From Candidatus Thorarchaeota archaeon (GTDB lineage Archaea > Asgardarchaeota > Thorarchaeia > Thorarchaeales > Thorarchaeaceae): a DNA stretch of 22,472 bases. A model generated the notes under the pieces. That model did not search any database, was not told the origin of the DNA, and saw only the letters and a program-made list of their open reading frames with translations. Made by a program: the position numbers and the translations under genes. Shown piece after piece: positions 320-14,300 of the stretch (position 1 is its first letter; each line of letters opens with the position of its first letter). The stretch spans positions 1-22,472 of the forward strand of contig JAFGAR010000162.1 in NCBI GenBank assembly GCA_016933575.1, read 5' to 3'.

Positions 320-592
320 TCAGGTCTTGAGCCTTATCTTGGGCGTGAGTCTTACGCACTCAATCATTGATTCAAACTCAGCTATGGTCTTCTCTGCCTT
401 CCTCTTTGTTACTCTTAATCTACGGTCCCCATTGGTCTGATATGGTCCCAGAACTACCACTTTGGTTTCGAGCTCGCCAATAGATTGATTGACTTGCTTA
501 GAAGTTGTTTTGAGTTTCTCTTCCAATTCACTAAAACGAATCTCTCGATTATCGATACCAATCGAACTGAGTTCCTCCAAGAACTTCATCAC
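320..592 (-). CDS. C-terminal fragment of the WD40/helical-module gene (in frame with 656..2047)
   Basis: Separated from 656..2047 only by one TAA and 21 open codons. KVVVLGPYQTNGDRRLRV matches KKVELGPIANEDDARLTV in the 2137-aa protein. Confidence 0.55.
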   Translation of the reverse strand: MMKFLEELSSIGIDNREIRFSELEEKLKTTSKQVNQSIGELETKVVVLGPYQTNGDRRLRVTKRKAEKTIAEFESMIECVRLTPKIRLKT

Positions 593-655
593 CCTACCTG
601 ACCCCTCAAAGAATTTGTACAGTGAAACCTTGGATTCTAGACGTGATACCAGCTT

Positions 656-2047
656 TTAATGATCAACAGGACCAAGTACACTCTTAGTCTTTTTCGATGA
701 CTGAAGGGATTTGATCAACACTGAAAACATATCGAATCCACTTGCGTAGTCACCCTCCTCAAAGTGTGCATCTGCTTTGGTTTCACTCTTTGCAACGTAG
801 TCAAAAAGATCCGCTGGCTCTGAGAGATTCTCAACTTCCTTAAAGACGACTTCAAAGACCATATCTTCCATCTCAAAGATTTCCTCTGTAGTTACAACAG
901 AGAAATATCCAAGGGTATCGCCAAATACCACAAGGTGGTCATCATCAAGAGAACTACGGATTTTGGGCATAGCACTATTTTTGGAATCCATATGGGTAAC
1001 AAGAATAACACTGCCGTCAGCAGGAAGTGGTCCCAGTCTTCCTGAGCTTCGAGAAGGCATATCTGCAACTTCCTCGGAATAACTAAGATCATCAATTTTC
1101 CATCTTCTCTTTGACCCAGAACCAGTTTCTGCATACACATAATCTTCATCGAGCTCGAGACCGATAATCGAACGAGAGGTGAAGAAATCACAGGAATCCC
1201 CCAATTCAAGCTGCTGAATCAATTTCCACTTGTCGCCTCTCCACTTAGGAGTACCCTTGTATACTTTAATCAGTCCCGAATCAAAACCACAGAATAAGAG
1301 CCTATCATATTCACCCCATTTATCACCCTCAAGAAGATATACAGCTAATGCCTTGATATCACTAAATCCTTCCTTACCTTGTAGTTGCTGAGCACGCTTC
1401 CCAGTTTCTTTATCAAAAATACTTACACCGCCACTCTCAGAAACATAGAGGTACTTTTCATCGGTAGACATAGCACCAATCCAATAACCGACTTCAGCGA
1501 TTGTTACAATAGGATTGGAGAATGCGAGTCCTGATATATCCCATATTCTAACGGAAGAATCAGAAGAAGCAGTAAAGGCATGCATTCCATCAGTAACAAC
1601 CAACTTGATTTCACTTGTGTGTCCTTTCAATTCTTCTAGTTTCCATTGAATCCCATCTTTCTCCTTAACCCAGTGCCTAAGAACACCATCCTTACAACCA
1701 CCCAGAACATGATCTTTATTGTAGAATTCATCAGTATGAAAAGCAACAGAATTGAGCTTCTTTTCGTGCCCTTTGATAGATTCATAGATTTCAAAATCAT
1801 CAGTACTTACAATCTCAATTGAGCCATCAGAAAGGCCGCAGTATATGTAATCGTCATCAACATGTATTTGTGTTATCCAAGTAAAACTGAATCCTTCTAC
1901 AAAATTAATTTGCTCCTTTTTTTCAAAAACCCAATTATCATAGATCTTTAGAGTCGAAGAAGGAGTGAGATACAGTCTATGCTCATCAGCTGCCATGGCA
2001 AAAAATCTTGATATTCTTCGGCGTCCATCGTTTTTATATGAGTCCAA
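656..2047 (-). CDS. WD40-repeat protein, middle fragment
   Basis: Canonical WD40 units GHEKKLNSVAF... and GHTSEIKLVVTDGMHAFTASSDSSVRIWDI, plus several D[DE]xY[IL]Y blades, followed by a helical segment (PADLFDYV...EEGDY). Confidence 0.75.
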   Translation of the reverse strand: MDSYKNDGRRRISRFFAMAADEHRLYLTPSSTLKIYDNWVFEKKEQINFVEGFSFTWITQIHVDDDYIYCGLSDGSIEIVSTDDFEIYESIKGHEKKLNSVAFHTDEFYNKDHVLGGCKDGVLRHWVKEKDGIQWKLEELKGHTSEIKLVVTDGMHAFTASSDSSVRIWDISGLAFSNPIVTIAEVGYWIGAMSTDEKYLYVSESGGVSIFDKETGKRAQQLQGKEGFSDIKALAVYLLEGDKWGEYDRLLFCGFDSGLIKVYKGTPKWRGDKWKLIQQLELGDSCDFFTSRSIIGLELDEDYVYAETGSGSKRRWKIDDLSYSEEVADMPSRSSGRLGPLPADGSVILVTHMDSKNSAMPKIRSSLDDDHLVVFGDTLGYFSVVTTEEIFEMEDMVFEVVFKEVENLSEPADLFDYVAKSETKADAHFEEGDYASGFDMFSVLIKSLQSSKKTKSVLGPVDH

Positions 2048-2721
2048 TCAGACATTGAATATACTTCAACTTTCGAACGTCCATGACAGATGTATAATTT
2101 GTCAGCTCCATCTGATAACCATATTGTTTCTCCGAACTCAAAATCAAAACTTCTTACTAATTTCCAGCTCCCCTTCTTGAGAATATTTATCTTTCCTCTA
2201 TCACCGATTGCGAAAAGGAGGCTGGAATTAGATTTAGAAAACCTGAGAGATTCAATACCGCCGAAAGCCCATTCATCTTCATTGACTTTTATCTCAGACA
2301 CTAGCGAACGTCTGGTTTTGTCATATATCTCAACTATGCAGTCATCATAGCCCAAATAGATGGAATTCTCGTCAACTGTGAAAGATCTAATATAACGAAT
2401 AGTAGGAAATTCACTTTCTTTTTTTTCTCTTGGAGGCAGGATAAAAGAATGACGCCAATCTCGTTTCGACCATCCATGCACCATGCCATTGCACATCGTG
2501 TAGACAAAATCATCGTCAACATCAATGCGGGTTACGGATTGTGGATGCCGCAGAACCGCGATTGTATCCAGACTATCAACTTCCCTTACTATCACTACAG
2601 CATTTTGATCCCGACCAGCTGAGGTGTAGAGATAGGACTCATCAGTTGTGATGCATGTGATTTCCTCACCATGACCATCCTCAAGGTGAACGATTGAACC
2701 AAATCTTAAAGGCCGACTCAT
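1948..2721 (-). CDS. WD40-repeat protein, N-terminal fragment
   Basis: GHGEEITCITTDESYLYTSAG, VTRIDVDDDFVYT and IRSFTVDENSIYLGYDDCIVEIYD blades. ATG at 2721 is preceded by GGGAG. Confidence 0.75.
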   Translation of the reverse strand: MSRPLRFGSIVHLEDGHGEEITCITTDESYLYTSAGRDQNAVVIVREVDSLDTIAVLRHPQSVTRIDVDDDFVYTMCNGMVHGWSKRDWRHSFILPPREKKESEFPTIRYIRSFTVDENSIYLGYDDCIVEIYDKTRRSLVSEIKVNEDEWAFGGIESLRFSKSNSSLLFAIGDRGKINILKKGSWKLVRSFDFEFGETIWLSDGADKLYICHGRSKVEVYSMSDWTHIKTMDAEEYQDFLPWQLMSIDCISLLLRL

Positions 2722-3563: not shown

Positions 3564-6500
3564 TCAACGTAAATCACGAATCTTTTTCATCAGATCACGG
3601 ATCGTTTTAATAGTGCCGCTGATGCTGTAGTGAAGCGACAATGCTTCCGCTTGCTTAAGATTGGTGACATTGGTTGCTTTCAAATCCCAATATTCTCTTG
3701 ATTCGATATTCATGGATCTCAATCTGATGAGGGAGTCTTGCGCTTGTGTGATATATCCTCTCACTGTGAGGCGAGCGTCGTCTTCATTTGCGATAGGACC
3801 CAACTCGACTTTCTTTTCGAATCGTTCCTTAATGGATTGATATTCACTCAATAGATTGTTTACTCTATCATGTAGAGGGGATATTTCAGCCCATATGGAT
3901 GGATACGCTTCCAGAGTATCCTTGGTGTTTTCGCTCTCTTCAATTGCTTTCTTCAAGATATCTATTCTCTCTTCAAGAGTCACACCAGATGAAGTTGATT
4001 TTTTAAGAGCATCTTCGAGAGAATGCTTGGTATCTAGCGATAATGCTTCTGCTCGCATTTCCTCTAGTTGCTTTTGAAATGAAGTGGTCTTTTCTCTAAT
4101 TTGATCCTTTAGTTGATCAAGTTCGGATTTTGAGTCAATAGATAGAGGGAGTCGCTTTTCGAACGCATCCAAATCTGATTTGGAAGAATGGAGTTTCTGT
4201 AACAGATCATGAATATCATTGGGCGATTCTATGTTAGAATCAAGCATGTGGTGAATTGATTGGATCTTGCTTTTGAGTTGTTCATGATGTTCGGATTCCT
4301 GATTCACGGTGATCTCAAGTTTCCTTACCAGTTCGTCTAAATCGCTTTTCACTGCAGTTGCTTGCGCTACAATCTCTGGTTGATCATATTCCGAAGCTGC
4401 TCGATAGGATTCATTGACGAATTTGAAAGCATCAGCAGAAAGATCATTCAATTTTCCTGAGGCTCTCCATTGAGAGGCTTCTGAGGTACTCATGGCCCCG
4501 AAATTGGATAGTTGCTTGTAGAAATTCTGAGCCTTTCTGAGAAGAGATTTCGCATAGGATATCTGATAGTGTGATTGTACCCTTTGAGCTAGATTCTCAG
4601 GAACTTCCGATCCGAATTGCTTCAAAGCAGAAGATTGTTCTTCTACATGTGTTTCCAGAACACGAAGATGATATATTGCATCATCGAATAATTCTTGATT
4701 GACTAATTTCTCACATTCCTCCAACTCAGATGTGATCCAATTGAAGATGTGTCGAGGAGAGTCAGGTTTTCCATTAGCAAGCTCAGGAAATCGTAGCCAT
4801 GGTTTGCGCTTGAGTTCCTCTTCTTTTCGTGCCTCTTCTGCTTTTATCGCCTGCTGCTTGTTCAGTTCTTCAAGTAGTCTAGTTACTTCAGCAATCTGGA
4901 AGTGAAGCTCCTGCAGCTGATCAGGAAACTCGACCAAAATCGGGTCCTGCTGCTCTAATTCCCACTCGAATTTCTGAACATGCTCCAATCGATCCTCAAT
5001 CGGTTTGGTATCATCCCTAGAGTACTCAGTAACTTCTATGAGTCTTCGATCAATTTCATCTATAGTCCGAGCAGCCTTCAAGCGACGAGCTTCTCTCTGA
5101 TGTTGCCTAATACCGCGAGAACCATATCCGACTCCAATGATTGCCACAATTCCCAATAGAAGGATAATGATACTATCTGTATTGAGAGCTAAGACCTGTA
5201 CAAGAGGCATCTGCGGATCGTTTGGATCAAATCCATTCTGGACCTCCCAATAATCGGAAGCACCATCACCATCAGAGTCTGTAAGCCCAGGATTCGAGCC
5301 TGCAGTATATTCTTGAAGATTGGTCAGGCCATCCCCATCAGCATCCAGTGAAGCATCATCCACAGTGGGATTCAATCCATTCAATACTTCCCATCCATCA
5401 GGCATTGAATCAGAATCTGTATCGCTATCTCCAGGATCTGTCAGGTTGGCATACTCCTCAGCGTTCGTCAGATCATCATCATCAGGATCGAATCCGCTAT
5501 CATCAAGTAGCGGATTCAAGTCGTGCTCGTATTCCCAACCATCAGGCATAGAGTCGGAATCCGAGTCCGCAGATATTGGACTTGTTCCTATCGTATACTC
5601 TTGATAGTTCGATAGTGCATCTAGATCCATATCTGAGTCAGCATCGTCTACTAATGGATCCAAATCATACTGCATTTCCCATCCATCAGGCATGAGATCA
5701 TCATCACTATCATTATCTGTTGGATCAGTATGATTTTGATACTCGACTAGATTGGGTACTCCATCCGAATCCGTATCCAAAGCAGAATCATTCGACAATG
5801 GGTCAAGAGAATAACTCACTTCCCAGCCATCGGGCATGAGATCTGAATCAGTATCATTGCTACCGGGATGGGTTTGATAGCCATATTCCTGCAGATTAGT
5901 CAATTCGTCTTCATCTAGATCCTCACCAGCATCATCTGAGAGGGGATCCAAATTGTAGTGTACTTCCCACCCGTCAGGCATCAAATCATCATCGGAATCA
6001 GCATCATCAGGAAATGTTTGATGTTCATACTCGTCACGATTTGTTAGAAGATCATTGTCAGGATCTGCTAGGGAGTCATCGACCAATGGTAGTAGTCCGT
6101 ACTGCACTTCCCAACCATCAGGCATATGATCAGAATCAGTGTCGTTGTTTCTCGGGTCTGTGTTATAGAAATATTCCAATTCATTGATGAGAGCATCATA
6201 GTCATTATCATCCATGGCGTCTGTAGCATTCAAGGGATCAAGTAAATGAGCAATTTCCCAGCCATCAGACATGGTATCCATGTCGGAGTCGTTACTCGTA
6301 GGAATAGTATGGTAGACATTTACTTCATCTCCATCACTTACGAGATCTGAATCAGTATCATTATTTCTAGGTGAAGTGGAGTAGCTTAGCTCGTAGAGGT
6401 TCTCAAGTCCATCAGAGTCCGCATCATTCATGGAATCATTCGTAAGTGGGTCTAAGTTGTAGAGTACTTCCCAGCCATCGGGCATGAGGTCTGAATCTGT

Positions 6501-9500
6501 GTCGTTACAGTGTGGATTCGTTGTGTGTTGATATTCATCAAGATTCGATAGTGTATCAAGATCAGGATCGTTGGTCGAGTCGTCTATAGTCGCATTGAGT
6601 GAATTAGCCACTTCCCAACCATCAGGCATCAGATCATTATCACTATCTGCATCTATCGGACTTGTGTTATGTTGGTATTCTGCAAGATTCGAAAGGCCAT
6701 CTGCATCTGCATCCAATGCGGCATCAGTCGAGTTATCAGGATCCAAGAAGTATTGAACTTCCCATCCATCTGGCATCTGGTCCGAATCAGTATCGTTGTT
6801 ATCAGGGTCAGTACCATAGGTCAGAACTTCGAGTCCGTCATCGAGATTATCTGAGTCGCTATCCGAGGAATTTGGATCAGTCCCATAGATGTTGATCTCC
6901 TGACCATCTGTTAGGTTATCATCATCGGAATCACTATCATTTGGATTAGTACTATAGGTATAGACTTCCGCCCCATCATCGAGATCATCCGAATCTGTGT
7001 CATTGTTTGATGGATTCGTATTCCACTCATGTTCTAGTAGATTTGTGAGTCCATCTGTATCAGGATCATCTCCTGAATCATCAAAGAGAGGATTGAGACC
7101 GTTTGTGACTTCCCAACCATCGGGCATCAAATCGTTCTCTGAATCATTATCATTCGGATCTGTCCCATTGCTATACTCAGCAAGATTGTTCAAGAGATCG
7201 TTATCCGGATCTTCTGATGAGTCATCTATCAATGGATTAAGAGTGTTTATTACCTCCCACCCGTCGGGCATCTGGTCCGAATCAGTATCGTTGCTACGGG
7301 GATTTATGTTGAGATTGTACTCCTGAAGATTCGTTAACGTGTCAGCATCAGGGTCTCCTGCAGAATCATCTGATAGCGGGTTCAGGTCATATTGTACCTC
7401 CCAGCCATCAGACATCAAATCAGAATCTGTGTCATTGTTATTTGGAAATGTCCCGTTTAGGTACTCGCCTAAGTTGGATAAACCATCAAGGTCTAAATCT
7501 AACTTTGCATCTGACGAGTTGAGGGGATTTAGCGAATAATCATGTTCCCAGTCATCTCTCATACCATCTGCGTCTGAATCATCATCTCTCGGATTCGTGC
7601 CTAGAGTATATTCCTCAATATTCGTCAATGTGTCGGTATCGGGGTCTCCGCCTGAATCATCACTTAGTGGATTCAATGAATATTGGATTTCCCATCCATC
7701 AGGCATGCCATCAAGTTCAGAATCGGTTGAATTGGGTTTAGTTCCAAGTTGGAATTCATCTAGATTGGAAAGAGTATCAAAATCAAGGTCTCCTCCGGAA
7801 TCATCAATGAGAGGATCGAGAGAATAGGCGACTTCCCATCCGTCATCCATTTGATCAGAATCAGTATCATTGCTCCGGGGATTAATTCCCAAATTATACT
7901 CCTGCAGATTTGTGAGAGTATCAGAATCCGGGTCCAGTCCAGCATCATTAACGAGTGGATCTAGTGAATTTCCTACTTCCCAGCCATCTGGCATAAAGTC
8001 CGAATCTGTGTCGTTGTTGTGGGGATTTGCATCATTAAGGAACTCGTTATAGTTAGATAATAGATCATTATCTGGATCATCAGCGCTGTCATCAATGAGA
8101 GGTAGGAGTCCGTTGATCACCTCCCACCCATCAGCCATCAGATCCGAATCCGTATCGTTATTCCACGGATTGGTGCTATTCCCATATTCATACAGATTTT
8201 GAAGATCATCGGAATCAGCATCAAGTAGCGCATCGTCTGAATCAATTGGATCGAATGAATTTGTCACTTCCCAACCGTCGGGCATATGATCTAAGTCCGT
8301 GTCGTTACTAAGCGGATTCGTTGAATAGGTAATGATTTCCTCCCAATCTGAGAGAGAATCATCATCGGAATCACTCTCCAAGGGATTTGTGTTATATTGA
8401 ACTACCTCTATACCATCAGGTAAATTATCATTGTCACTGTCCGAATCGTCAGGGTCTGTGCCAAGAACACTTTCTGTATATTCCGATAGAAAGTCATCAT
8501 CAGAATCAACGAAAGCTACATTCCTTGTTCGTTGGAAATCCCCACCATTTCCTTGCCAAAAGGCACGAAAGCCAGCATCCGATATATCAAGAACATAAAT
8601 GTCACCAGTAATGTCAGCGAAAACGACCTCAATGCGACCATCCAAATCAAGGTCGTACAGAGTTGGTGCCGCAAATATCATATTCCCTGCTGTGTAGTTC
8701 CAGAGCATCCTACCATTGGAGCCATTCAATGCATGCAGCAGTTGATTATTACTGCCGATGATGATATCCAGAGAATTGTCGCCATTTACATCCCCAAGAG
8801 CTGGTCCATTTGTCCACATAAACTCCCCAATCGCACGTTTCCATACCTCTGAGCCATCCTCGCCATTCAACACGTGCAGCCAATCATCAGTACCAGCAAC
8901 GACTACCTCAAGTTTACCATCATTATCGACATCACCGAGAGCCGGAGAAGCTGATGTGGCACAGGTGGCATTCCAAAGGGATGAGCCATCCTCAGCATTG
9001 ATCGCATAGAGCTTGTTATTGACATCAGCGCAAATCACTTCTGGTTTGCCATCACCATCAACATCGCCAACCACAGGAGAGCTTTCAATGGTGTTCAACG
9101 CCTGAAAGGACCAGATGATATTCCCAGTTTGCCCGTTACGAGCTCGTATCCAGTAATCACGATTTGCAGATATCACCTCGAGAGTTCCATCATTATTGAT
9201 ATCGACAATTGCAGGAGATGCTTGGAAATAATCAGTTTCGGATTTCACCCAATAGCTATTCCCATTTTCTCCTTGGACTGCACGAATGTAGTCATCGCCG
9301 GTACCAAACACGACCTCCAATTTACCATCCTTGTCTAAATCAGCAAGTGCTGTCGATGATATAATGCCGTTGGAGTAACTATTACACCATAACTCGGACC
9401 CAGATTCGCCATTGATAGCAAACACTTTTTCAGCAACATCTCCTGCGAGTATCTCCGGCTTCGAATCACCATCAACATCTCCGACAGCTATCGGGCTATC

Positions 9501-9848
9501 GACGAAATGGGATGCACCATAGACCCATAGCTGTGTTCCATTCTCACCATGAAATGCAATAACTGCATCATCCTTTGTACCTATGATAACCTCAGGATAT
9601 GGATCTCCATCCAATTCGGCAACTGCAGGAGTTGAGAATATACCCATACCAGAGATGTGGCTACTCCATTTTACGGATACAGACGATACAACATAATCTT
9701 TCTTGACTTCAATGGGCTTGATTGAATTACTTTGAGTGATTTTGTTAACTCCTGCATAAGCGCCATAAAGAGAACACGAGGAAGTAGTGGAAGCAGCGAA
9801 GAATAGGCAAATCACAGCTAATAGTAGGACCTTCACCTTAATGGACAC
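3564..9848 (-). CDS. Giant single-pass surface protein: signal peptide, 8x FG-GAP/PQQ-like propeller, ~1100-aa Asp-rich (TSP3-like) stalk, TM helix, cytoplasmic helical module
   Basis: The ORF track gives 3564..9977. The likelier start is GTG 9848 (GGGGGT SD, then MSIKVKVLLLAVICLFFAA signal). Eight P.[LV][GA]D[VLI]D.DG..E[VI] repeats, 19 MPDGWE-type units, and TM SIIILLLGIVAIIGVGYG followed by basic RGIRQHQREARRLK. Confidence 0.9.
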   Translation of the reverse strand: MSIKVKVLLLAVICLFFAASTTSSCSLYGAYAGVNKITQSNSIKPIEVKKDYVVSSVSVKWSSHISGMGIFSTPAVAELDGDPYPEVIIGTKDDAVIAFHGENGTQLWVYGASHFVDSPIAVGDVDGDSKPEILAGDVAEKVFAINGESGSELWCNSYSNGIISSTALADLDKDGKLEVVFGTGDDYIRAVQGENGNSYWVKSETDYFQASPAIVDINNDGTLEVISANRDYWIRARNGQTGNIIWSFQALNTIESSPVVGDVDGDGKPEVICADVNNKLYAINAEDGSSLWNATCATSASPALGDVDNDGKLEVVVAGTDDWLHVLNGEDGSEVWKRAIGEFMWTNGPALGDVNGDNSLDIIIGSNNQLLHALNGSNGRMLWNYTAGNMIFAAPTLYDLDLDGRIEVVFADITGDIYVLDISDAGFRAFWQGNGGDFQRTRNVAFVDSDDDFLSEYTESVLGTDPDDSDSDNDNLPDGIEVVQYNTNPLESDSDDDSLSDWEEIITYSTNPLSNDTDLDHMPDGWEVTNSFDPIDSDDALLDADSDDLQNLYEYGNSTNPWNNDTDSDLMADGWEVINGLLPLIDDSADDPDNDLLSNYNEFLNDANPHNNDTDSDFMPDGWEVGNSLDPLVNDAGLDPDSDTLTNLQEYNLGINPRSNDTDSDQMDDGWEVAYSLDPLIDDSGGDLDFDTLSNLDEFQLGTKPNSTDSELDGMPDGWEIQYSLNPLSDDSGGDPDTDTLTNIEEYTLGTNPRDDDSDADGMRDDWEHDYSLNPLNSSDAKLDLDLDGLSNLGEYLNGTFPNNNDTDSDLMSDGWEVQYDLNPLSDDSAGDPDADTLTNLQEYNLNINPRSNDTDSDQMPDGWEVINTLNPLIDDSSEDPDNDLLNNLAEYSNGTDPNDNDSENDLMPDGWEVTNGLNPLFDDSGDDPDTDGLTNLLEHEWNTNPSNNDTDSDDLDDGAEVYTYSTNPNDSDSDDDNLTDGQEINIYGTDPNSSDSDSDNLDDGLEVLTYGTDPDNNDTDSDQMPDGWEVQYFLDPDNSTDAALDADADGLSNLAEYQHNTSPIDADSDNDLMPDGWEVANSLNATIDDSTNDPDLDTLSNLDEYQHTTNPHCNDTDSDLMPDGWEVLYNLDPLTNDSMNDADSDGLENLYELSYSTSPRNNDTDSDLVSDGDEVNVYHTIPTSNDSDMDTMSDGWEIAHLLDPLNATDAMDDNDYDALINELEYFYNTDPRNNDTDSDHMPDGWEVQYGLLPLVDDSLADPDNDLLTNRDEYEHQTFPDDADSDDDLMPDGWEVHYNLDPLSDDAGEDLDEDELTNLQEYGYQTHPGSNDTDSDLMPDGWEVSYSLDPLSNDSALDTDSDGVPNLVEYQNHTDPTDNDSDDDLMPDGWEMQYDLDPLVDDADSDMDLDALSNYQEYTIGTSPISADSDSDSMPDGWEYEHDLNPLLDDSGFDPDDDDLTNAEEYANLTDPGDSDTDSDSMPDGWEVLNGLNPTVDDASLDADGDGLTNLQEYTAGSNPGLTDSDGDGASDYWEVQNGFDPNDPQMPLVQVLALNTDSIIILLLGIVAIIGVGYGSRGIRQHQREARRLKAARTIDEIDRRLIEVTEYSRDDTKPIEDRLEHVQKFEWELEQQDPILVEFPDQLQELHFQIAEVTRLLEELNKQQAIKAEEARKEEELKRKPWLRFPELANGKPDSPRHIFNWITSELEECEKLVNQELFDDAIYHLRVLETHVEEQSSALKQFGSEVPENLAQRVQSHYQISYAKSLLRKAQNFYKQLSNFGAMSTSEASQWRASGKLNDLSADAFKFVNESYRAASEYDQPEIVAQATAVKSDLDELVRKLEITVNQESEHHEQLKSKIQSIHHMLDSNIESPNDIHDLLQKLHSSKSDLDAFEKRLPLSIDSKSELDQLKDQIREKTTSFQKQLEEMRAEALSLDTKHSLEDALKKSTSSGVTLEERIDILKKAIEESENTKDTLEAYPSIWAEISPLHDRVNNLLSEYQSIKERFEKKVELGPIANEDDARLTVRGYITQAQDSLIRLRSMNIESREYWDLKATNVTNLKQAEALSLHYSISGTIKTIRDLMKKIRDLR
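5214..8510 (-). repeat. Coding tandem repeats (~50 aa/~150 nt) DxDxDxMPDGWE...L[ND]P...D.D.D.L.N..EY...T.P
   Basis: Counted in the translation: 19 long units plus a terminal GASDYWE unit and interspersed ~24-aa short units. Visible on + as recurring TCCCA.CCATC.GGCAT. Confidence 0.9.
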
Positions 9849-10024
9849 AACCAAACCCCCAGGATAGCCGAGGCATCCCCGATAAGCATATGCAAAGCTC
9901 AAAATAAACTCTTTTACTTCGATAGTCAAATATTCAATCTGGGAGCACCTTGATATACTTTGGAGTGTGAACCACATTAGCTCTATACCGTATATGGACT
10001 CTCTGGATTCTAGCTAGACTCCAT

Positions 10025-11284
10025 TCAGTTGGCTGAATAGAAATCACGATCAGGATTGATTCTTGAATTCTCACGAAGAGATTTCATTATTCTCCAAATA
10101 GCCTCAAGGCGGTCTGTTAGATTGAAACGCTGAGCAATTGCTTCGGCTTCTTTCAAATCAACGATTGCCTTCTCTTTCAATTGCCAGTATTGCCTATCAT
10201 CAAGTTGTGATACAGAGAGTTGCTTCTCTATGTTCCGAACCTGCAGAATGAATCCATCAATTGTCAATTGTGCATCATCAGCATCTATAATCTGGTAGTA
10301 TGTTTCGCCTTGTGAGCTTATGTTTCTCAGGATGGACTTGTAGGTATTTGCCAAGTGAGTAGATTCCTCAATTAGATGCTTGATTCTACCACTTGGTGTG
10401 CTGCTCACAGGATATTGAGAACTCAGGTCCTTTTCTCGTTCCAAAGCAGTCTCAAGGAGTGCAATCCTTTTTTCAAGTGGCACTTCCTGTATTTTAGATT
10501 GGATTATTGCGGTGGTAAGTAGTTGATCTATCGCGAGATTCAATTCCAGTATGTGTTTGACAGAGAGAGCTTGAGCATGAAGCTTCTCAAGATTACTTTG
10601 ATCAGATACATCAAGAGCAGCATCAATGAACTCAAATGCCTGTTTCCGATGAGATTCCAAGTTTCCAGATTCCGCGTACTCTTTGCTATCGGTATTTGTA
10701 ATGAGGTCTAGCATGCTTTGAGCACGACGTATGTTCATTCGAACAATTGCAATTTGATACACTTTGTCAGCTTTTGAGGAGAGAGCGAATGGAATGTCAT
10801 CACCAAGTTGCTTTAATTTGGATTTGTGTTTCTTTATTTGTGATTTCAAATACAGCAAGCATTTGACAGTATCATCAAGGTTATTTTCATTCAAGTGCGA
10901 ATTACATTCTGCTATTCCCTGATCTATCCATTCTGCGATATTTTGAGGAGAATAGGTTTTTCTCGTAGATAGTAGCATCCATGGACTAGTTCGAAGTATT
11001 TCTTCTTCTCTGATCCGCTCGTGCTCCTTTTCCTTTAAAACCTCAGATTTCTTATTCAGTTCACTTAGTTTCTGAATGACAGCATCACGATTTAGCATAA
11101 CTATTGATGACTCTTTAGACCTCAAGAAAGGATTACGAGTGTACTTATCGAGTTCTTTCAACAGGGACCTAAGATTCTCAATACGCTGATTGAGTGGTAT
11201 TGAATCATCGTTTGATTCAGTATACACATGATTGATCTTCCGAACAATCTCAACTACATCCTTTCTCATTGAATATCGCCCCAA
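10025..11284 (-). CDS. Helical protein homologous to the cytoplasmic tail of the flanking surface proteins (no head, stalk or TM)
   Basis: Shares DDSIPLNQRIENL, SPWM...SPQNIAEWI, EVPLEKRIALL and IIDADDAQLTIDGFILQ...QYWQLK...DLKEAEAI with both neighbours. Start is TTG 11284 or ATG 11269. Confidence 0.85.
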   Translation of the reverse strand: MGRYSMRKDVVEIVRKINHVYTESNDDSIPLNQRIENLRSLLKELDKYTRNPFLRSKESSIVMLNRDAVIQKLSELNKKSEVLKEKEHERIREEEILRTSPWMLLSTRKTYSPQNIAEWIDQGIAECNSHLNENNLDDTVKCLLYLKSQIKKHKSKLKQLGDDIPFALSSKADKVYQIAIVRMNIRRAQSMLDLITNTDSKEYAESGNLESHRKQAFEFIDAALDVSDQSNLEKLHAQALSVKHILELNLAIDQLLTTAIIQSKIQEVPLEKRIALLETALEREKDLSSQYPVSSTPSGRIKHLIEESTHLANTYKSILRNISSQGETYYQIIDADDAQLTIDGFILQVRNIEKQLSVSQLDDRQYWQLKEKAIVDLKEAEAIAQRFNLTDRLEAIWRIMKSLRENSRINPDRDFYSAN

Positions 11285-11376: not shown

Positions 11377-14300
11377 CTATTGAATTTCACGAAGCGTTTT
11401 CATTAGGCCCCGAATCCTCACAACGCTTTCCACTAAATCATAATGAATTGCTAGTGCTTCAGCTTGTTTCAAATTGGTGACTGTAGTTCCCTTCAAATCC
11501 CAATATTCATCTGATTCGACATCTATATTCTTCAGCTGCGATAGCGCACAATCAGATTGGGAGATGAACCCTCTGACAGTAAGACGTGCATCTGCTTCGT
11601 TCGCTATAGATTGGAAAACGATGTCCGTATCGAATTTCTCTTTTATGGCCCTTATTTTCTCCAAATATGATTGAATCTTGTCTATGTTTGGAGAGAGTTT
11701 CTCCCATAGATCAGAATGAATCTCAAGTTGGTTCTTTGCACCGACAGCTCTGGATAACACAGTTACTAGAAGAGGGATTCTTTCTTCGATTGGGAGTTCA
11801 GAGGAAGATATCGTCTTATCGATGGCATTTTTCAGGGCGCCATCGATTTCAATTGCCAATGCTTCCGCGTTATTCCTGATCAGCTGTCGTTCTAGTGAAC
11901 GTATCTTATTCTGAATTTCTTGAGACAATGAATCGAATTCAGATTTTGATTGAACAGAGAGAGGTATTTGTTCTATGTAGGATTCAAGGTCTGATTTTGC
12001 CGATTCTAGTTTCTTCACTAGAGTTCTGATGTCATCAGATGAATCTGCTTTGGATTCTAAAACATCCCTTGTTGCACCTATCTTTTTCTGTAGTTGTGAA
12101 TGAAGCTTTGATTTGTGCTCTACATCATTCTCGAGGCGTTCAATCAATGATGCGATATCTTCTCTGATTGCGATTGCTTGAGCTTGGATTTCAGGTAGAT
12201 TATACTCCTTAGAGGCTTGAAATGATTCATCGACATAGTGCAAAGCTTCAGCAGAGAGACTTCGAATCTCTCCAGATTTCCTTCGCTCAGCTGCTTCAGA
12301 AGAACTCATAGTTTCGAATTCCGCTACTCTATTGAAGATGGCCTGAGCCTTTCGTAGAAGGGATTTAGAGTGAGCAACTCGAAAAGCATTTTCAATTTTT
12401 CCGGTTAGTTTCTCAGTATCAGCGGAGCTTATCTTTGTTAGTTTGGAAGATTGTTCATGCATATGAACATTCAGAATTTCCAATCGAGTATATGCATCAT
12501 CCAATAGGTCTTGATTCATAAGACTCTGACATTCTTTGAATTCGAACGAAATCCAGTTGAGTATATGTTGCGGTGAATCAGGCGTTCCATTGGTAAGGTT
12601 AGAATATCGCATCCAAGGTTTGCGTTTGAATTTAAGTTGCGTCCGAAGCTCTTCATCCCGCTCTTCCTTTTTCATCCGTAGCTCATCCAAAAGTGCTGTT
12701 GTCTTTGATAAGTACTCATAGAGCTCTTTTTGTTGAGTCGGAAATTCATCCAGAACACCCCACTGGCCTTTCAATTCATCCTTGAAACGCTCAACTTTTT
12801 CTATCCGTTGTTCTAGTGAGGTGTCACTTTCTTGTGAGTAGTTCAAGATATTATCCATTTGACTGTCAATACTTGACAGGGTCGCAATAGCTTGAGAAGC
12901 GCGAACTTGTACTCTCCGTTTATTATTATGGCGAATCCCATATCTAATCCCGACCATTGCGAGTAGACCTATGAGTACGAGTGCTATATTTCCAGAATTC
13001 AGTACAAGCATCTGGATAATTGATATCTCAGAATCATTGGGGTCAAATCCATTTTGGATCTCCCATAAATCCGATGCGCCATCACCATCCGAATCCGCAA
13101 GATTCGGATTGGTACCATGAGTATACTCTTCCAGATTGGTCAGACCATCTCCATCAGCATCTAGTGAAGCATCATTTACCAAAGGAATTAATCCATACTG
13201 GACCTCCCACCCATCAGGCATCAAGTCGGAGTCGGTATCGCTGCTTAGTGGATTCGTTCCTACCTCAAGAACCTCTCGACCATCTGATAGCGTATCATCA
13301 TCACTATCGCTATCTCCCGGATCTGTTAAGCACGCATATTCCTGAGCATTTGTCAGGTCGTCATCATCGGAATCGAGCGAGCTGTCATCGACAAGGGGAT
13401 TTAGACCATACTGGAGTTCCCAGCCATCTGGCATGGAATCCGAATCTGTGTCCGATAAATTGGGATTAGTGCTAGCTAGATACTCCTCATAGTTCGTAAG
13501 ATCATCTGAATCGGGGTCCAACCCTGCATCATTGAGTAGGGGATTGAGACCATACTGAACCTCCCAGCCATCGGGAATCAAGTCAGAGTCAGTATCACTA
13601 TTGATCGGATCAGTGCTATTCTGATACTCTTCCAGATTTAGCAAGCCATCTGAATCAGCATCAGCGGCCGAATCATTTGCAAGTGGATTCAATGAATATA
13701 TGACCTCCCAGCCATCGGGCATGAGATCGGAGTCGGTGTCATTGTTCTGGGGACTTGTTTGATGAACATACTCTTGGAGGTTGGTCAAATCATCATCATC
13801 GGGATCAAGTGATGCATCGTTGATTAGAGGATTCAGTGAGTGTTGTACTTCCCAACCATCGGGCATCTGATCTGTATCCGTGTCGTTACTAAGAGGATCT
13901 GTATGGTGGATGTGAACCTCAACACCATCGAGCAAAGTATCTGAATCGCAATCAGGATTGATAGGGGATGTACCGTTAGTGTACTCATCAACATTCACTA
14001 AGGTGTCTGTATCGTTATCATATTGCGTGTCATTCACGAGGGGATTCAGATTGTATTGGACTTCCCACCCATCAGGCATGGTGTCTGAGTCACTATCGTT
14101 TGACAGAGGATTTGTCCCGAGATTGTGTACCTCGATACCATCAAGTAGCGTGTCTGAATCAGAGTCATTATTCAGAGGATCGGTTCCATAGGAGAATATC
14201 TCATCCGGATCTATGAGTTGGTCTGAATCGGTATCATCTGAAAGAGGATCTGTCGAATATGTATTCACCTCATCATTATCCTTTATCGTATCGTCGTCAG

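What the first reader, a model, noticed from the sequence alone, without database searches (positions are those of the whole stretch)
3564..5115. Unrecognised modular cytoplasmic domain built from gained and lost helical bundles
Conserved blocks across the tails: (A) [ST]LExRIE-type block (KPIEDRLEHV / TSLEQRIEKV / IPLNQRIENL), absent in the SBBP protein. (B) PW...P..I.[NE]WI followed by a TPR/MIT-like hairpin. (C) a ~100-aa block with LPLS/IPLS/LSLS, absent in the 419-aa protein. (D) a second LEERI block, an internal repeat of A. (E) terminal I...DA.L.[VI].G[FY]I.Q...[EQ]YW.L....L..A..[LI], the best-conserved part. No kinase, cyclase, nuclease or P-loop motif is visible, so the output is probably protein-protein interaction. 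MIT-like (ESCRT-III binding), spectrin-like or talin/vinculin-like bundles are hypotheses only.
Basis: partly seen in the sequence, partly recalled or inferred. Interest (0 to 1): 0.74.

Follow-up and report, generated by a model that had tools for sequence, protein, structure and literature searches.

The report
Undescribed helical-rod tail of Thorarchaeota surface proteins
The segment encodes the 517-residue cytoplasmic tail of a giant integrin-like surface protein of an Asgard (Thorarchaeota) archaeon: a rod of stacked helical bundles with no enzyme motif, from a family that public domain libraries do not hold, most likely a docking scaffold whose partners are unknown.

Summary
Bases 3564-5115 (minus strand) encode the last 517 residues of a 2137-aa type I membrane protein: FG-GAP propeller, about 18 TSP3-like calcium-binding repeats, one TM helix, then the tail.

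Three neighbouring genes carry homologous tails (E 5e-127 to 3e-13). Blocks A to E are all present as described.

Pfam, NCBIfam, PADLOC and PDB sequences give no family. An exhaustive phmmer search of 1.84 billion proteins found only the window's paralogues and one other Thorarchaeota protein.

AlphaFold2 predicts an all-helical rod (pLDDT 87.6). Its shape resembles spectrin or alpha-actinin repeats. Block B folds as a compact domain (pLDDT 92, pTM 0.83) whose first three helices superpose on MIT and TPR domains. All these matches lie below the noise line for helical bundles, and sequence profiles do not support membership of any of these families.

Modularity is real:
- Block A is missing from the SBBP protein and block C from the 419-aa protein.
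- Block A resembles block D.
- A relative has an 87-aa unit duplicated.
- Block B also occurs alone.

The same B-to-E module forms the C-terminal half of a WD40 protein conserved across Thorarchaeota. Receptor-type tails cluster in two genomes, the only two holding a DO-GTPase-like gene, which lies beside them.

Function is inferred, not shown. The scan found this module before, on another genome.

The parts
5109..5210 (-). Single transmembrane helix of the 2137-aa protein (residues about 1590-1623), directly before the tail
   Evidence: Hydropathy scan; basic residues follow on the tail side.
4803..5117 (-). Block A: tail residues 1-105, three long helices (H2-34, H40-61, H65-104). Absent from the SBBP paralogue. 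A sequence repeat of block D.
   Evidence: Alignments A1 and A2; model; hhalign A against D, probability 81%, E 1.3e-5.
4797..4802 (-). Invariant Pro-Trp (PW) motif in a lower-confidence linker between blocks A and B (tail residues 106-107). In relatives it lies about 12 residues after the TM helix.
   Evidence: Invariant columns P106 and W107 in A2; pLDDT 57-62 in that stretch; relatives' sequences.
4359..4817 (-). Block B domain (tail residues 101-253): a compact four-helix domain with the P..I..WI motif. Its first three helices are MIT/TPR-like in shape. It is the most widely spread piece of the module.
   Evidence: Alignment A7 of 21 sequences; model pLDDT 92.3, pTM 0.83; VIA-align matches; weak TPR and MIT Pfam matches in some members.
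4023..4358 (-). Block C (tail residues 254-365): an optional stretch of about 112 residues holding the LPLS motif. Missing from the 419-aa paralogue and shortened in P0008.
   Evidence: Alignments A1 and A2; spectrin-repeat-like superposition over tail residues 263-434.
3567..4022 (-). Blocks D and E (tail residues 366-517): the LEERI block and the terminal DA.L..G..Q ... YW.L bundle, the best-conserved end of the tail.
   Evidence: Alignments A5 and A9. Profiles of this part also match the conserved WD40 protein of the same genome: A5, E 1.1e-6; A9, E 2.8e-5.
10025..11284 (-). Tail-only paralogue (419 aa; blocks A, B, D, E; no TM helix, no ectodomain)
11377..12936 (-). Homologous tail of the 1556-aa FG-GAP/TSP3 paralogue (residues 1038-1556)
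   Evidence: 41% identity, E 4.8e-127.
16457..17848 (-). Homologous tail of the 1014-aa SBBP/TSP3 paralogue (residues 552-1014; lacks block A)
   Evidence: E 3.5e-29.
605..823 (-). A fifth block-B-like segment, in the C-terminal extension of the broken WD40 gene. The match runs through the in-frame TAA at 656-658.
   Evidence: hhalign of A7 against window:323-1060 read through the stop: probability 88%, E 3.3e-6, 73 columns. No block E was found there.
20794..21570 (+). Divergent DO-GTPase-like gene interrupted by in-frame TAG, divergently oriented from the receptor genes. Its relative lies next to the tail protein P0008 in the other genome.
   Evidence: 26% identity, E 2e-18 to L006:14546-15385. 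Paralogues on G000:C160 pass the Pfam DO-GTPase1 cut-off. The family was found only in G000 and G360 of 86 genomes.
21835..22470 (+). SPFH/Band-7-like gene (cut by the contig end), syntenic with the tail genes in both genomes
   Evidence: 29% identity, E 4e-15 to L006:13896-14504. That relative has a sub-threshold Band_7 match, E 7e-4. The window copy has no Pfam hit of its own.

Best explanation
The segment encodes the cytoplasmic tail of a type I surface protein of a Thorarchaeota (Asgard) archaeon. The tail is a non-enzymatic, elongated all-alpha rod.

Its predicted parts, in order:
- a three-helix unit (block A);
- a flexible linker holding the invariant PW motif;
- a compact four-helix B domain, MIT/TPR-like in shape;
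- two or three spectrin-like bundles that share long connecting helices (blocks C and D);
- a conserved terminal bundle (block E).

It belongs to a lineage-restricted, undescribed 'B-to-E' module family. This family is joined to variable heads: FG-GAP or SBBP propellers on TSP3 stalks, a polytopic membrane domain, a cytosolic WD40 propeller, a zinc ribbon, or only a TM anchor. Units are added and dropped between members.

The most likely role is a constant docking chassis. It would hold variable extracellular sensor or adhesin heads in the membrane and present conserved helical surfaces (PW, block B, block E) to cytoplasmic partners.

The best candidate partners are other copies of the same module: the tail-only paralogue, the sister receptors and the conserved WD40 protein. 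The adjacent DO-GTPase-like switch and SPFH-like membrane scaffold are further candidates.

Shown here: the gene anatomy, the homology, the absence of a known family, the predicted fold, the modular gain and loss, and the phyletic and neighbourhood pattern.

Inferred only: the cytoplasmic orientation (from the positive-inside rule), the scaffold function and every proposed partner.
For: Anatomy and topology.

Homology of the four tails.

No known family: Pfam, NCBIfam, PADLOC, PDB sequence profile. No catalytic motif.

Rarity: phmmer over 1.84 billion representatives found only three window paralogues and P0008.

Fold:
- Whole tail pLDDT 87.6, all helical.
- B domain pLDDT 92.3, pTM 0.83.
- The top ESM Atlas shape matches are alpha-actinin and spectrin rods.

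Modularity: block A and block C deletions; A resembles D; 87-aa duplication in L041; B-only and other architectures.

Same module in the conserved WD40 protein:
- Block B profile hits at E 1e-9 to 2e-6 in five orthologues of other genomes; P0009 itself is weak, E 0.0055.
- Blocks D and E in the own-genome orthologue, E 1.1e-6.
- 57 Thorarchaeota loci hold this WD40 gene.

Link to the GTPase and SPFH pair: adjacency in two loci that are only 20-29% identical. The GTPase family was found in just 2 of 86 family genomes, the same two that hold the expanded receptor-type tails.
Against: No interaction has been shown for any partner.

Conserved positions are mostly hydrophobic and could be core residues rather than a binding surface. 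I had no model coordinates, so I could not map them.

The whole-tail pTM is 0.47, so the relative arrangement of the bundles is uncertain.

The phyletic link with the GTPase rests on only two genomes. The window's GTPase-like gene carries in-frame stop codons and may be dead.

The family was not found in the receptor form in 27 congeneric genomes, so it is dispensable.
Confidence: 0.6

Rival explanations
1. The tail is the constant coupling element of a membrane-proximal conflict or sensing system of the DO-GTPase type. Variable, non-enzymatic extracellular heads would sense a foreign entity or a neighbouring cell. The tail would pass the signal to a DO-GTPase-like switch, with the SPFH-like protein organising the membrane patch.
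For: A DO-GTPase-like gene and an SPFH-like gene flank the tail genes in both G000 and G360.

The GTPase family occurs in only these two of 86 family genomes. Its paralogues on G000:C160 pass the Pfam DO-GTPase1 cut-off, and the G360:C118 locus holds a protein with sub-threshold GAP1-N2 and GAP1-M matches.

Kaur et al. 2020 (PMC7159879) describe DO-GTPase systems as membrane-proximal, with constant parts fused to variable non-enzymatic sensor modules.

Sporadic distribution, tandem paralogy, head swapping and broken genes are typical of such fast-evolving loci.
Against: No GAP1 gene lies in the window, although the contig ends 3' of the SPFH-like gene.

The window GTPase-like gene has in-frame TAG and no Pfam hit of its own. 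PADLOC gives nothing.

Other tail loci of G360 (L040-L043) and the single tails in G362, G371 and G355 lack the GTPase.

The co-occurrence rests on only two genomes.
Confidence: 0.2
2. The B domain is a true MIT-type module that recruits ESCRT-III subunits through their C-terminal MIM helices. The receptors would then mark sites of ESCRT-dependent membrane remodelling, such as vesicle budding, protrusion scission or receptor down-regulation.

For: Three of 21 family members give weak Pfam MIT matches (best E 0.066), and 7 of 21 give TPR_2 matches.

The genome encodes two ESCRT-III proteins with conserved amphipathic C-terminal helices, and a Vps4.

Against: The B-domain profile shows no sequence relationship to the genome's own Vps4 MIT domain (hhalign probability 0.3%).

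The window's own tails give no MIT or TPR Pfam match.
Confidence: 0.08
3. The tail is a passive spacer or part of a sub-membrane skeleton. Spectrin-like rods would lie under the membrane, give mechanical support or spacing to the giant ectodomains, and have no specific signalling partner.
For: Rod-like predicted shape with spectrin or alpha-actinin as the best shape matches. Rod length varies between paralogues through unit gain and loss, as in spacer proteins. There is no enzymatic motif.
Against: The ends of the module (PW and block B, block E) are conserved across proteins only 17-29% identical in those blocks. They also recur on soluble WD40, zinc-ribbon and minimal TM-anchored proteins. 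That pattern points to specific conserved contacts rather than mere length. The 419-aa tail-only paralogue has no membrane anchor.
Confidence: 0.12

Closest known systems
Spectrin-repeat rods (spectrin, alpha-actinin, plakin domains; Pfam PF00435)
MIT domain (Vps4, Vta1/LIP5, MITD1, calpain-7, katanin p60; Pfam PF04212) and single TPR hairpins
   Different: All matches are sub-threshold. There is no profile similarity to the genome's own Vps4 MIT domain. A fourth helix packs onto the bundle, and the third helix continues into the next bundle. The domain is not attached to an AAA ATPase or any other known MIT context.
Integrin alpha subunits and the 'integrin-repeat' Asgard signature proteins (Liu et al. 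2021, as cited in PMC9258230)
   Same: An extracellular FG-GAP beta-propeller with calcium-binding motifs on a type I membrane protein. The general logic is a surface head, one TM helix and a cytoplasmic tail that must act through adaptors.
   Different: Integrin tails are short (about 20-50 residues) and bind talin or kindlin. Here the tail is 460-520 residues and is itself a helical rod. The stalk is made of bacterial-type TSP3 repeats, not Calf or Thigh domains. No beta subunit is evident.
DO-GTPase/GAP1 conflict systems (Kaur, Burroughs, Iyer, Aravind 2020, PMC7159879)
   Same: A membrane-proximal locus that combines a DO-GTPase-family gene with large, variable, non-enzymatic repeat proteins. 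Distribution is sporadic and paralogues stand in tandem.
   Different: No GAP1 or GASH component lies in the window. The GTPase here is divergent and interrupted. The helical tail family is not among the described components.

Membership tests
Spectrin repeat (PF00435) | Significant sequence-profile match to the spectrin-repeat family | tested here: not met
   Pfam scan of the four tails gives no spectrin family at E up to 1. Only 2 of 21 B-domain members gave Spectrin_Anc-1_2, at E 0.11.
Spectrin repeat (PF00435) | Tandem three-helix bundles joined by a continuous helix | tested here: inconclusive
MIT domain (PF04212) | Sequence-profile match to MIT | tested here: not met
   No MIT hit for the window tails. 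3 of 21 relatives match at E 0.066 or worse. hhalign of the family profile against the genome's own Vps4 MIT gives probability 0.3%.
MIT domain (PF04212) | Asymmetric three-helix bundle of about 75 residues | tested here: inconclusive
MIT domain (PF04212) | Binds MIM helices of ESCRT-III subunits | not testable with these tools
   Needs a binding assay with the C-terminal peptides of the two ESCRT-III proteins (L013:1444-2121, L014:1429-2046).
TPR (PF07719 and relatives) | 34-residue helix-turn-helix motif, normally in arrays of three or more | tested here: inconclusive
   TPR_2 matches in 7 of 21 family members (best E 1.3e-4), not in the window tail tabulated in that scan nor in any of the four tails. 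At most one hairpin per protein. ESM Atlas shape matches to TPR proteins have TM about 0.5.
Talin / vinculin helical bundles | Four- or five-helix bundles with profile or fold match to talin rod or vinculin head/tail | tested here: inconclusive
   No Pfam match. None is listed among the best Foldseek or VIA-align rows; a family that is not listed is not excluded.
DO-GTPase/GAP1 system (Kaur et al. 2020) | DO-GTPase gene or genes in the locus | tested here: inconclusive
   The window gene at 20794-21570 is homologous (E 6e-23 and 5e-22) to own-genome C160 genes that pass the DO-GTPase1 cut-off. It has no Pfam hit of its own and carries in-frame TAG.
DO-GTPase/GAP1 system (Kaur et al. 2020) | GAP1 component encoded next to the GTPase | tested here: inconclusive
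   None within the window. The contig ends inside the next gene but one. GAP1-like domains were seen only at G360:C118.

The most novel reading that the evidence does not exclude
Thorarchaeota may have an 'outside-in' adhesion or sensing apparatus that foreshadows the eukaryotic link between surface receptors and the cytoskeleton. Integrin-like FG-GAP receptors would carry spectrin/MIT-like rod tails. These tails would dock, by homotypic contacts between copies of the module, onto the conserved WD40 protein encoded beside the Asgard tubulin-like (Asg.Tub) gene cluster, or would recruit ESCRT-III. Surface recognition would thereby be coupled to cytoskeletal or membrane remodelling.
Probability: 0.1. 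Interest if true: 0.85.

Novelty: new variant of a known kind. Interest (0 to 1): 0.55.

Why it matters
Asgard archaea are the closest known prokaryotic relatives of eukaryotes. How their elaborate surfaces and protrusions connect to their actin, tubulin-like and ESCRT machineries is an open question.

Here a family of giant integrin-like surface proteins carries a long, conserved, non-enzymatic cytoplasmic rod. The same rod module sits on a WD40 protein that is conserved throughout Thorarchaeota and encoded next to a tubulin-family gene. That yields a concrete, testable set of candidate links between surface and cytoplasm: the tails, the tail-only paralogue, the WD40 protein, and the DO-GTPase-like and SPFH-like neighbours.

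It also adds an undescribed domain family for databases, and an example of receptor evolution by shuffling helical units and heads.

The limits are real. The receptor form is sporadic, found mostly in two MAGs. The fold class is common. No function has been shown.

Tried and rejected
Word-indexed homologue searches with the 419-aa paralogue and with the five-tail profile returned only the window's own proteins.

The search for related loci with A2 had no stretch conserved enough to search with. With A3 it found 35 pattern matches but no relative.

The ESM Atlas feature search gave only low-score unnamed archaeal clusters.

The CATCHR/Exo70 and Bro1 rows were considered and rejected as generic helical matches (TM 0.14-0.49, high rmsd).

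Talin and vinculin bundles did not appear in any list.

Co-folding of the B domain (A7) with the C-terminal 86 residues of the ESCRT-III protein of the ESCRT gene cluster (A8) gave no verdict: score 0.01 against a mark of 0.32, controls not run. This is neither for nor against binding.

hhalign of the B-domain profile against the genome's own Vps4 MIT showed no relationship.

A block-E-like segment in the window's broken WD40 gene was sought and not found.

PADLOC gave no defence-family hit for the tail-only protein, the GTPase-like or the SPFH-like proteins.

Expression: no RNA holder is listed. Two metatranscriptome runs of the same study held next to none of the stretch, which says nothing about expression.

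NCBIfam gave only coiled-coil-type compositional matches (SMC, Rad50) far below their cut-offs.
Full report
WHAT IS THERE. The window is one whole contig (C152) of a 3.47-Mb MAG that is 85% complete. The organism is an Asgard archaeon of the Thorarchaeota:
- It encodes a eukaryote-type actin (Pfam Actin, 441 bits).
- It has two Snf7/ESCRT-III genes and a Vps4 with an MIT domain next to one of them.
- The closest relatives of one of its conserved genes come from records titled Candidatus Thorarchaeota.

Bases 3564-5115 on the minus strand are the stop codon and the last 517 codons of a 2137-aa ORF (3564-9977). The protein reads, in order:
- an N-terminal hydrophobic anchor or signal;
- an FG-GAP/PQQ-like beta-propeller;
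- about 18 long xDGWE units within a field of 49 DxDxD motifs (bacterial TSP3-type calcium-binding repeats);
- one TM helix (residues about 1590-1623);
- a basic stretch, then the tail.

By the positive-inside rule the tail is cytoplasmic. This is an inference.

Three further genes in tandem on the same strand end in homologous tails:
- the 1556-aa FG-GAP/TSP3 protein (41% identity, E 4.8e-127);
- the 1014-aa SBBP/TSP3 protein (22% identity, E 3.5e-29);
- a 419-aa protein that is tail only (E 7.4e-22 and 2.6e-13).

Block A is missing from the SBBP protein, and the block C stretch of about 112 residues is missing from the 419-aa protein.

Block D is a repeat of block A by profile-profile comparison (hhalign probability 81%, E 1.3e-5, 61 columns). 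The tails are as well conserved between the two FG-GAP paralogues (41%) as their propellers (36%).

NO KNOWN FAMILY, AND VERY FEW RELATIVES. The searches gave the following:
- Pfam gives only sub-threshold coiled-coil noise.
- NCBIfam gives only SMC- and Rad50-type compositional matches far below their cut-offs.
- PADLOC gives nothing.
- A profile search of all PDB sequences gives nothing significant.
- No nucleotide-binding, kinase, cyclase or histidine-kinase motif is present.

An exhaustive phmmer search of 1.84 billion cluster representatives found four proteins. Three are the window's own paralogues. The fourth is P0008, a 936-aa protein of another Thorarchaeota MAG (GCA_027031765.1). In P0008 the same tail follows a polytopic membrane domain.

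None of 27 congeneric genomes has the tail.

THE FAMILY IS WIDER THAN THE TAILS. A profile of block B alone, searched in six frames over 400 genomes of the phylum, hit 15 genomes. Twelve of these are among the 85 other genomes of the same family. The hits have several architectures:
- FG-GAP + TSP3 + TM + tail, in G360 and G362;
- a polytopic membrane domain + tail (P0008);
- small proteins of 202-289 aa with only an N-terminal TM helix and block B;
- a double zinc ribbon + block B;
- soluble proteins of about 650 aa with a WD40 propeller followed by the helical module.

The WD40 protein is conserved across Thorarchaeota, with 57 loci found. The window's own genome has an orthologue at C156:154772-156634. 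That orthologue matches the block D/E profile at E 1.1e-6.

The WD40 gene lies in a conserved cluster: a 362-aa protein, a tubulin/FtsZ-family gene, a 902-aa protein, the WD40 gene and a TPR protein. This is the neighbourhood in which Meheust et al. 2022 (PMC9258230) noted an 'integrin-like' family that always lies next to tubulin/FtsZ in Asgard genomes.

The broken WD40 gene at the 3' end of this window (320-2721) also carries a block-B-like segment. The match (hhalign probability 88%, E 3.3e-6) runs straight through the in-frame TAA at 656-658.

A profile of blocks D and E over the 86 genomes of the family found the receptor-type tails concentrated in two genomes:
- G000: four tails.
- G360: nine matches.
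- G362, G371 and G355: one shorter match each.

FOLD. AlphaFold2 on the five-sequence alignment gives a confident all-helical model: mean pLDDT 87.6, and 19 helices of about 4 to 48 residues separated by short turns. The pTM is only 0.47, as expected for an elongated chain of domains.

The one lower-confidence stretch (pLDDT 57-62) is the linker that holds the invariant PW motif.

Block B, folded alone with 21 diverse sequences, is a compact four-helix domain (pLDDT 92.3, pTM 0.83).

Foldseek finds nothing significant in the PDB for either model.

- 3f57: 153 residues at 2.7 A;
- 1s35: 163 residues at 2.9 A;
- 1u4q: 244 residues over three repeats.

The ESM Atlas shape search ranks alpha-actinin and spectrin rods first (TM by query 0.41 over 310 residues).

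Scanning the 21 block B sequences against Pfam gives TPR_2 in seven, TPR_1 in five and MIT in three, all weak.

My reading is therefore this. The shape is a spectrin-like chain of bundles that begins with an MIT/TPR-like bundle. Membership of any of those families is not supported.

MODULARITY. Besides the block A and block C differences inside the window, one G360 paralogue (L041) has an 87-residue unit duplicated in tandem. The two copies are 79% identical, and its sister L042 has a single copy.

NEIGHBOURHOOD AND PHYLETIC PATTERN. On the other side of the receptor genes, divergently transcribed, lie three genes:
- a P-loop GTPase-like gene interrupted by in-frame TAG (20794-21570);
- a small membrane ORF;
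- an SPFH-like gene cut by the contig end (21835-22470).

In the other genome, P0008 is followed by a 317-aa protein, an SPFH-like protein and a GTPase-like protein. Their similarity to the window's proteins is as follows:
- SPFH-like: 29% identical to the window's copy, E 4e-15, with a weak Band_7 match.
- GTPase-like: 26% identical to the window's copy, E 2e-18, with weak DO-GTPase1/2 matches.

A profile of this GTPase over the 86 family genomes hits only G000 and G360, the two genomes with expanded receptor-type tails.

Further copies on G000:C160 pass the Pfam DO-GTPase1 cut-off. At G360:C118 the gene downstream shows GAP1-N2 and GAP1-M domains below threshold.

DO-GTPase/GAP1 loci were described by Kaur et al. 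2020 (PMC7159879) as predicted membrane-proximal conflict systems in which constant parts are joined to variable non-enzymatic sensors.

This is suggestive, but it rests on two genomes. The other tail loci lack the GTPase.

HOW IT MOST LIKELY WORKS. The safest statement is that the tail is a non-enzymatic helical scaffold. It forms the constant chassis of a family of surface proteins with exchangeable heads and stalks of graded length.

Its conserved ends (PW and block B near the membrane, block E at the far end) recur on soluble, zinc-ribbon and minimal membrane-anchored proteins. They are therefore the likely contact sites.

The most economical partners are other copies of the same module: sister receptors, the tail-only 419-aa protein and the conserved WD40 protein. 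The DO-GTPase-like and SPFH-like neighbours are further candidates.

I give the scaffold reading 0.6. The rivals score lower: the DO-GTPase-coupled sensor reading 0.2, the passive spacer or skeleton 0.12, and true MIT-type ESCRT-III recruitment 0.08. A co-folding trial of block B with an ESCRT-III C-terminus gave no verdict and is not counted either way.

NOVELTY AND VERDICT. The sequence family is absent from Pfam, NCBIfam and the PDB. I found no description of it in the searched literature.

Its fold class is common, so I rate it a new variant of a known kind, not categorically new.

This scan had already reported the same shared module on another genome (note e1-5455634: the WD40 protein and the membrane protein of G360). 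My independent analysis agrees with that note. It adds the following:
- the window's four-gene array;
- the MIT/TPR-like shape of block B;
- the internal repeat of block A in block D;
- the unit duplication;
- the co-occurrence with DO-GTPase-like genes.

Interest is moderate (0.55). The finding gives a concrete handle on coupling between surface and cytoplasm in an Asgard lineage. But the function is untested, the receptor form is sporadic, and several genes of the locus are broken.

An independent Logan assembly of the source run reproduces the contig with four substitutions and no indels. The in-frame stop in the WD40 gene and the frameshift in the SBBP gene are therefore not artefacts of this one assembly. 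The reads are probably the same ones, however.

Noticed in passing
window 16457-20537 (-): The SBBP protein is probably one gene of about 1370 aa split by a frameshift. ORF 19455-20537 (signal peptide, DUF7948, SBBP repeat) overlaps ORF 16457-19501 by 47 nt in another frame, and an SBBP repeat continues across the junction. An independent Logan contig shows no indel there.
   Followed up: partly
window 320-2721 (-): A WD40 gene lies in three pieces: a frame change near 1948-2047 and an in-frame TAA at 656-658. Its C-terminal extension holds a block-B-like domain that spans the TAA. A homologous WD40 ORF lies in a tail-gene locus of G360 (L043:2848-3813).
   Followed up: partly
window 20794-21570 (+): The DO-GTPase-like gene has an in-frame TAG at 21262-21264 (a six-frame search counted two TAG in the stretch) and SSPGAGKI in place of a canonical P-loop. 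It may be a pseudogene or a degenerate regulatory paralogue.
   Followed up: partly
G000:C160 (L145:1606-11619) and G360:C118 (L146): A second locus, conserved in the same two genomes, has two or three tandem DO-GTPase1 genes followed by proteins of about 1500 aa and about 990 aa with no Pfam family. The G360 copies show sub-threshold GAP1-N2 and GAP1-M matches and a weak FG-GAP match. This is a candidate archaeal DO-GTPase/GAP1 system.
   Followed up: partly
L055:3850-4500 and neighbours (G034); also L047, L048, L050, L051: Small proteins with an N-terminal TM helix plus block B (202-289 aa) are conserved in several Thorarchaeota genera. They lie in a syntenic region with CheY-like receiver proteins, KaiC-like ATPases, a TPR protein and an MEDS/TrmB regulator.
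   Followed up: partly
L006:1298-9797 and L044, L045, L046, L049, L053: A conserved Thorarchaeota cluster holds a 362-aa protein, a tubulin/FtsZ-family gene, a 902-aa helical protein, the WD40 protein with the B-to-E module and a 211-aa TPR protein. It matches the earlier scan note on an Asg.Tub three-gene module and the tubulin-adjacent 'integrin-like' family of PMC9258230.
   Followed up: partly
L052:1051-2112 (G359): A 354-aa soluble protein joins two N-terminal zinc ribbons to a PW motif and a block B domain. This is another head on the same module.
   Followed up: no
L041:7703-9907 against L042:1822-3693 (G360): One of two near-identical paralogous tails has an 87-aa helical unit duplicated in tandem; the two copies are 79% identical.
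   Followed up: yes
L014:2055-3401 (-), G000:C131: Next to the ESCRT-III and Vps4 genes lies a 448-aa protein with an N-terminal zinc-ribbon-like CxxC motif. By eye, one segment resembles a GRAM/PH (GLUE-like) domain. This was not tested.
   Followed up: no
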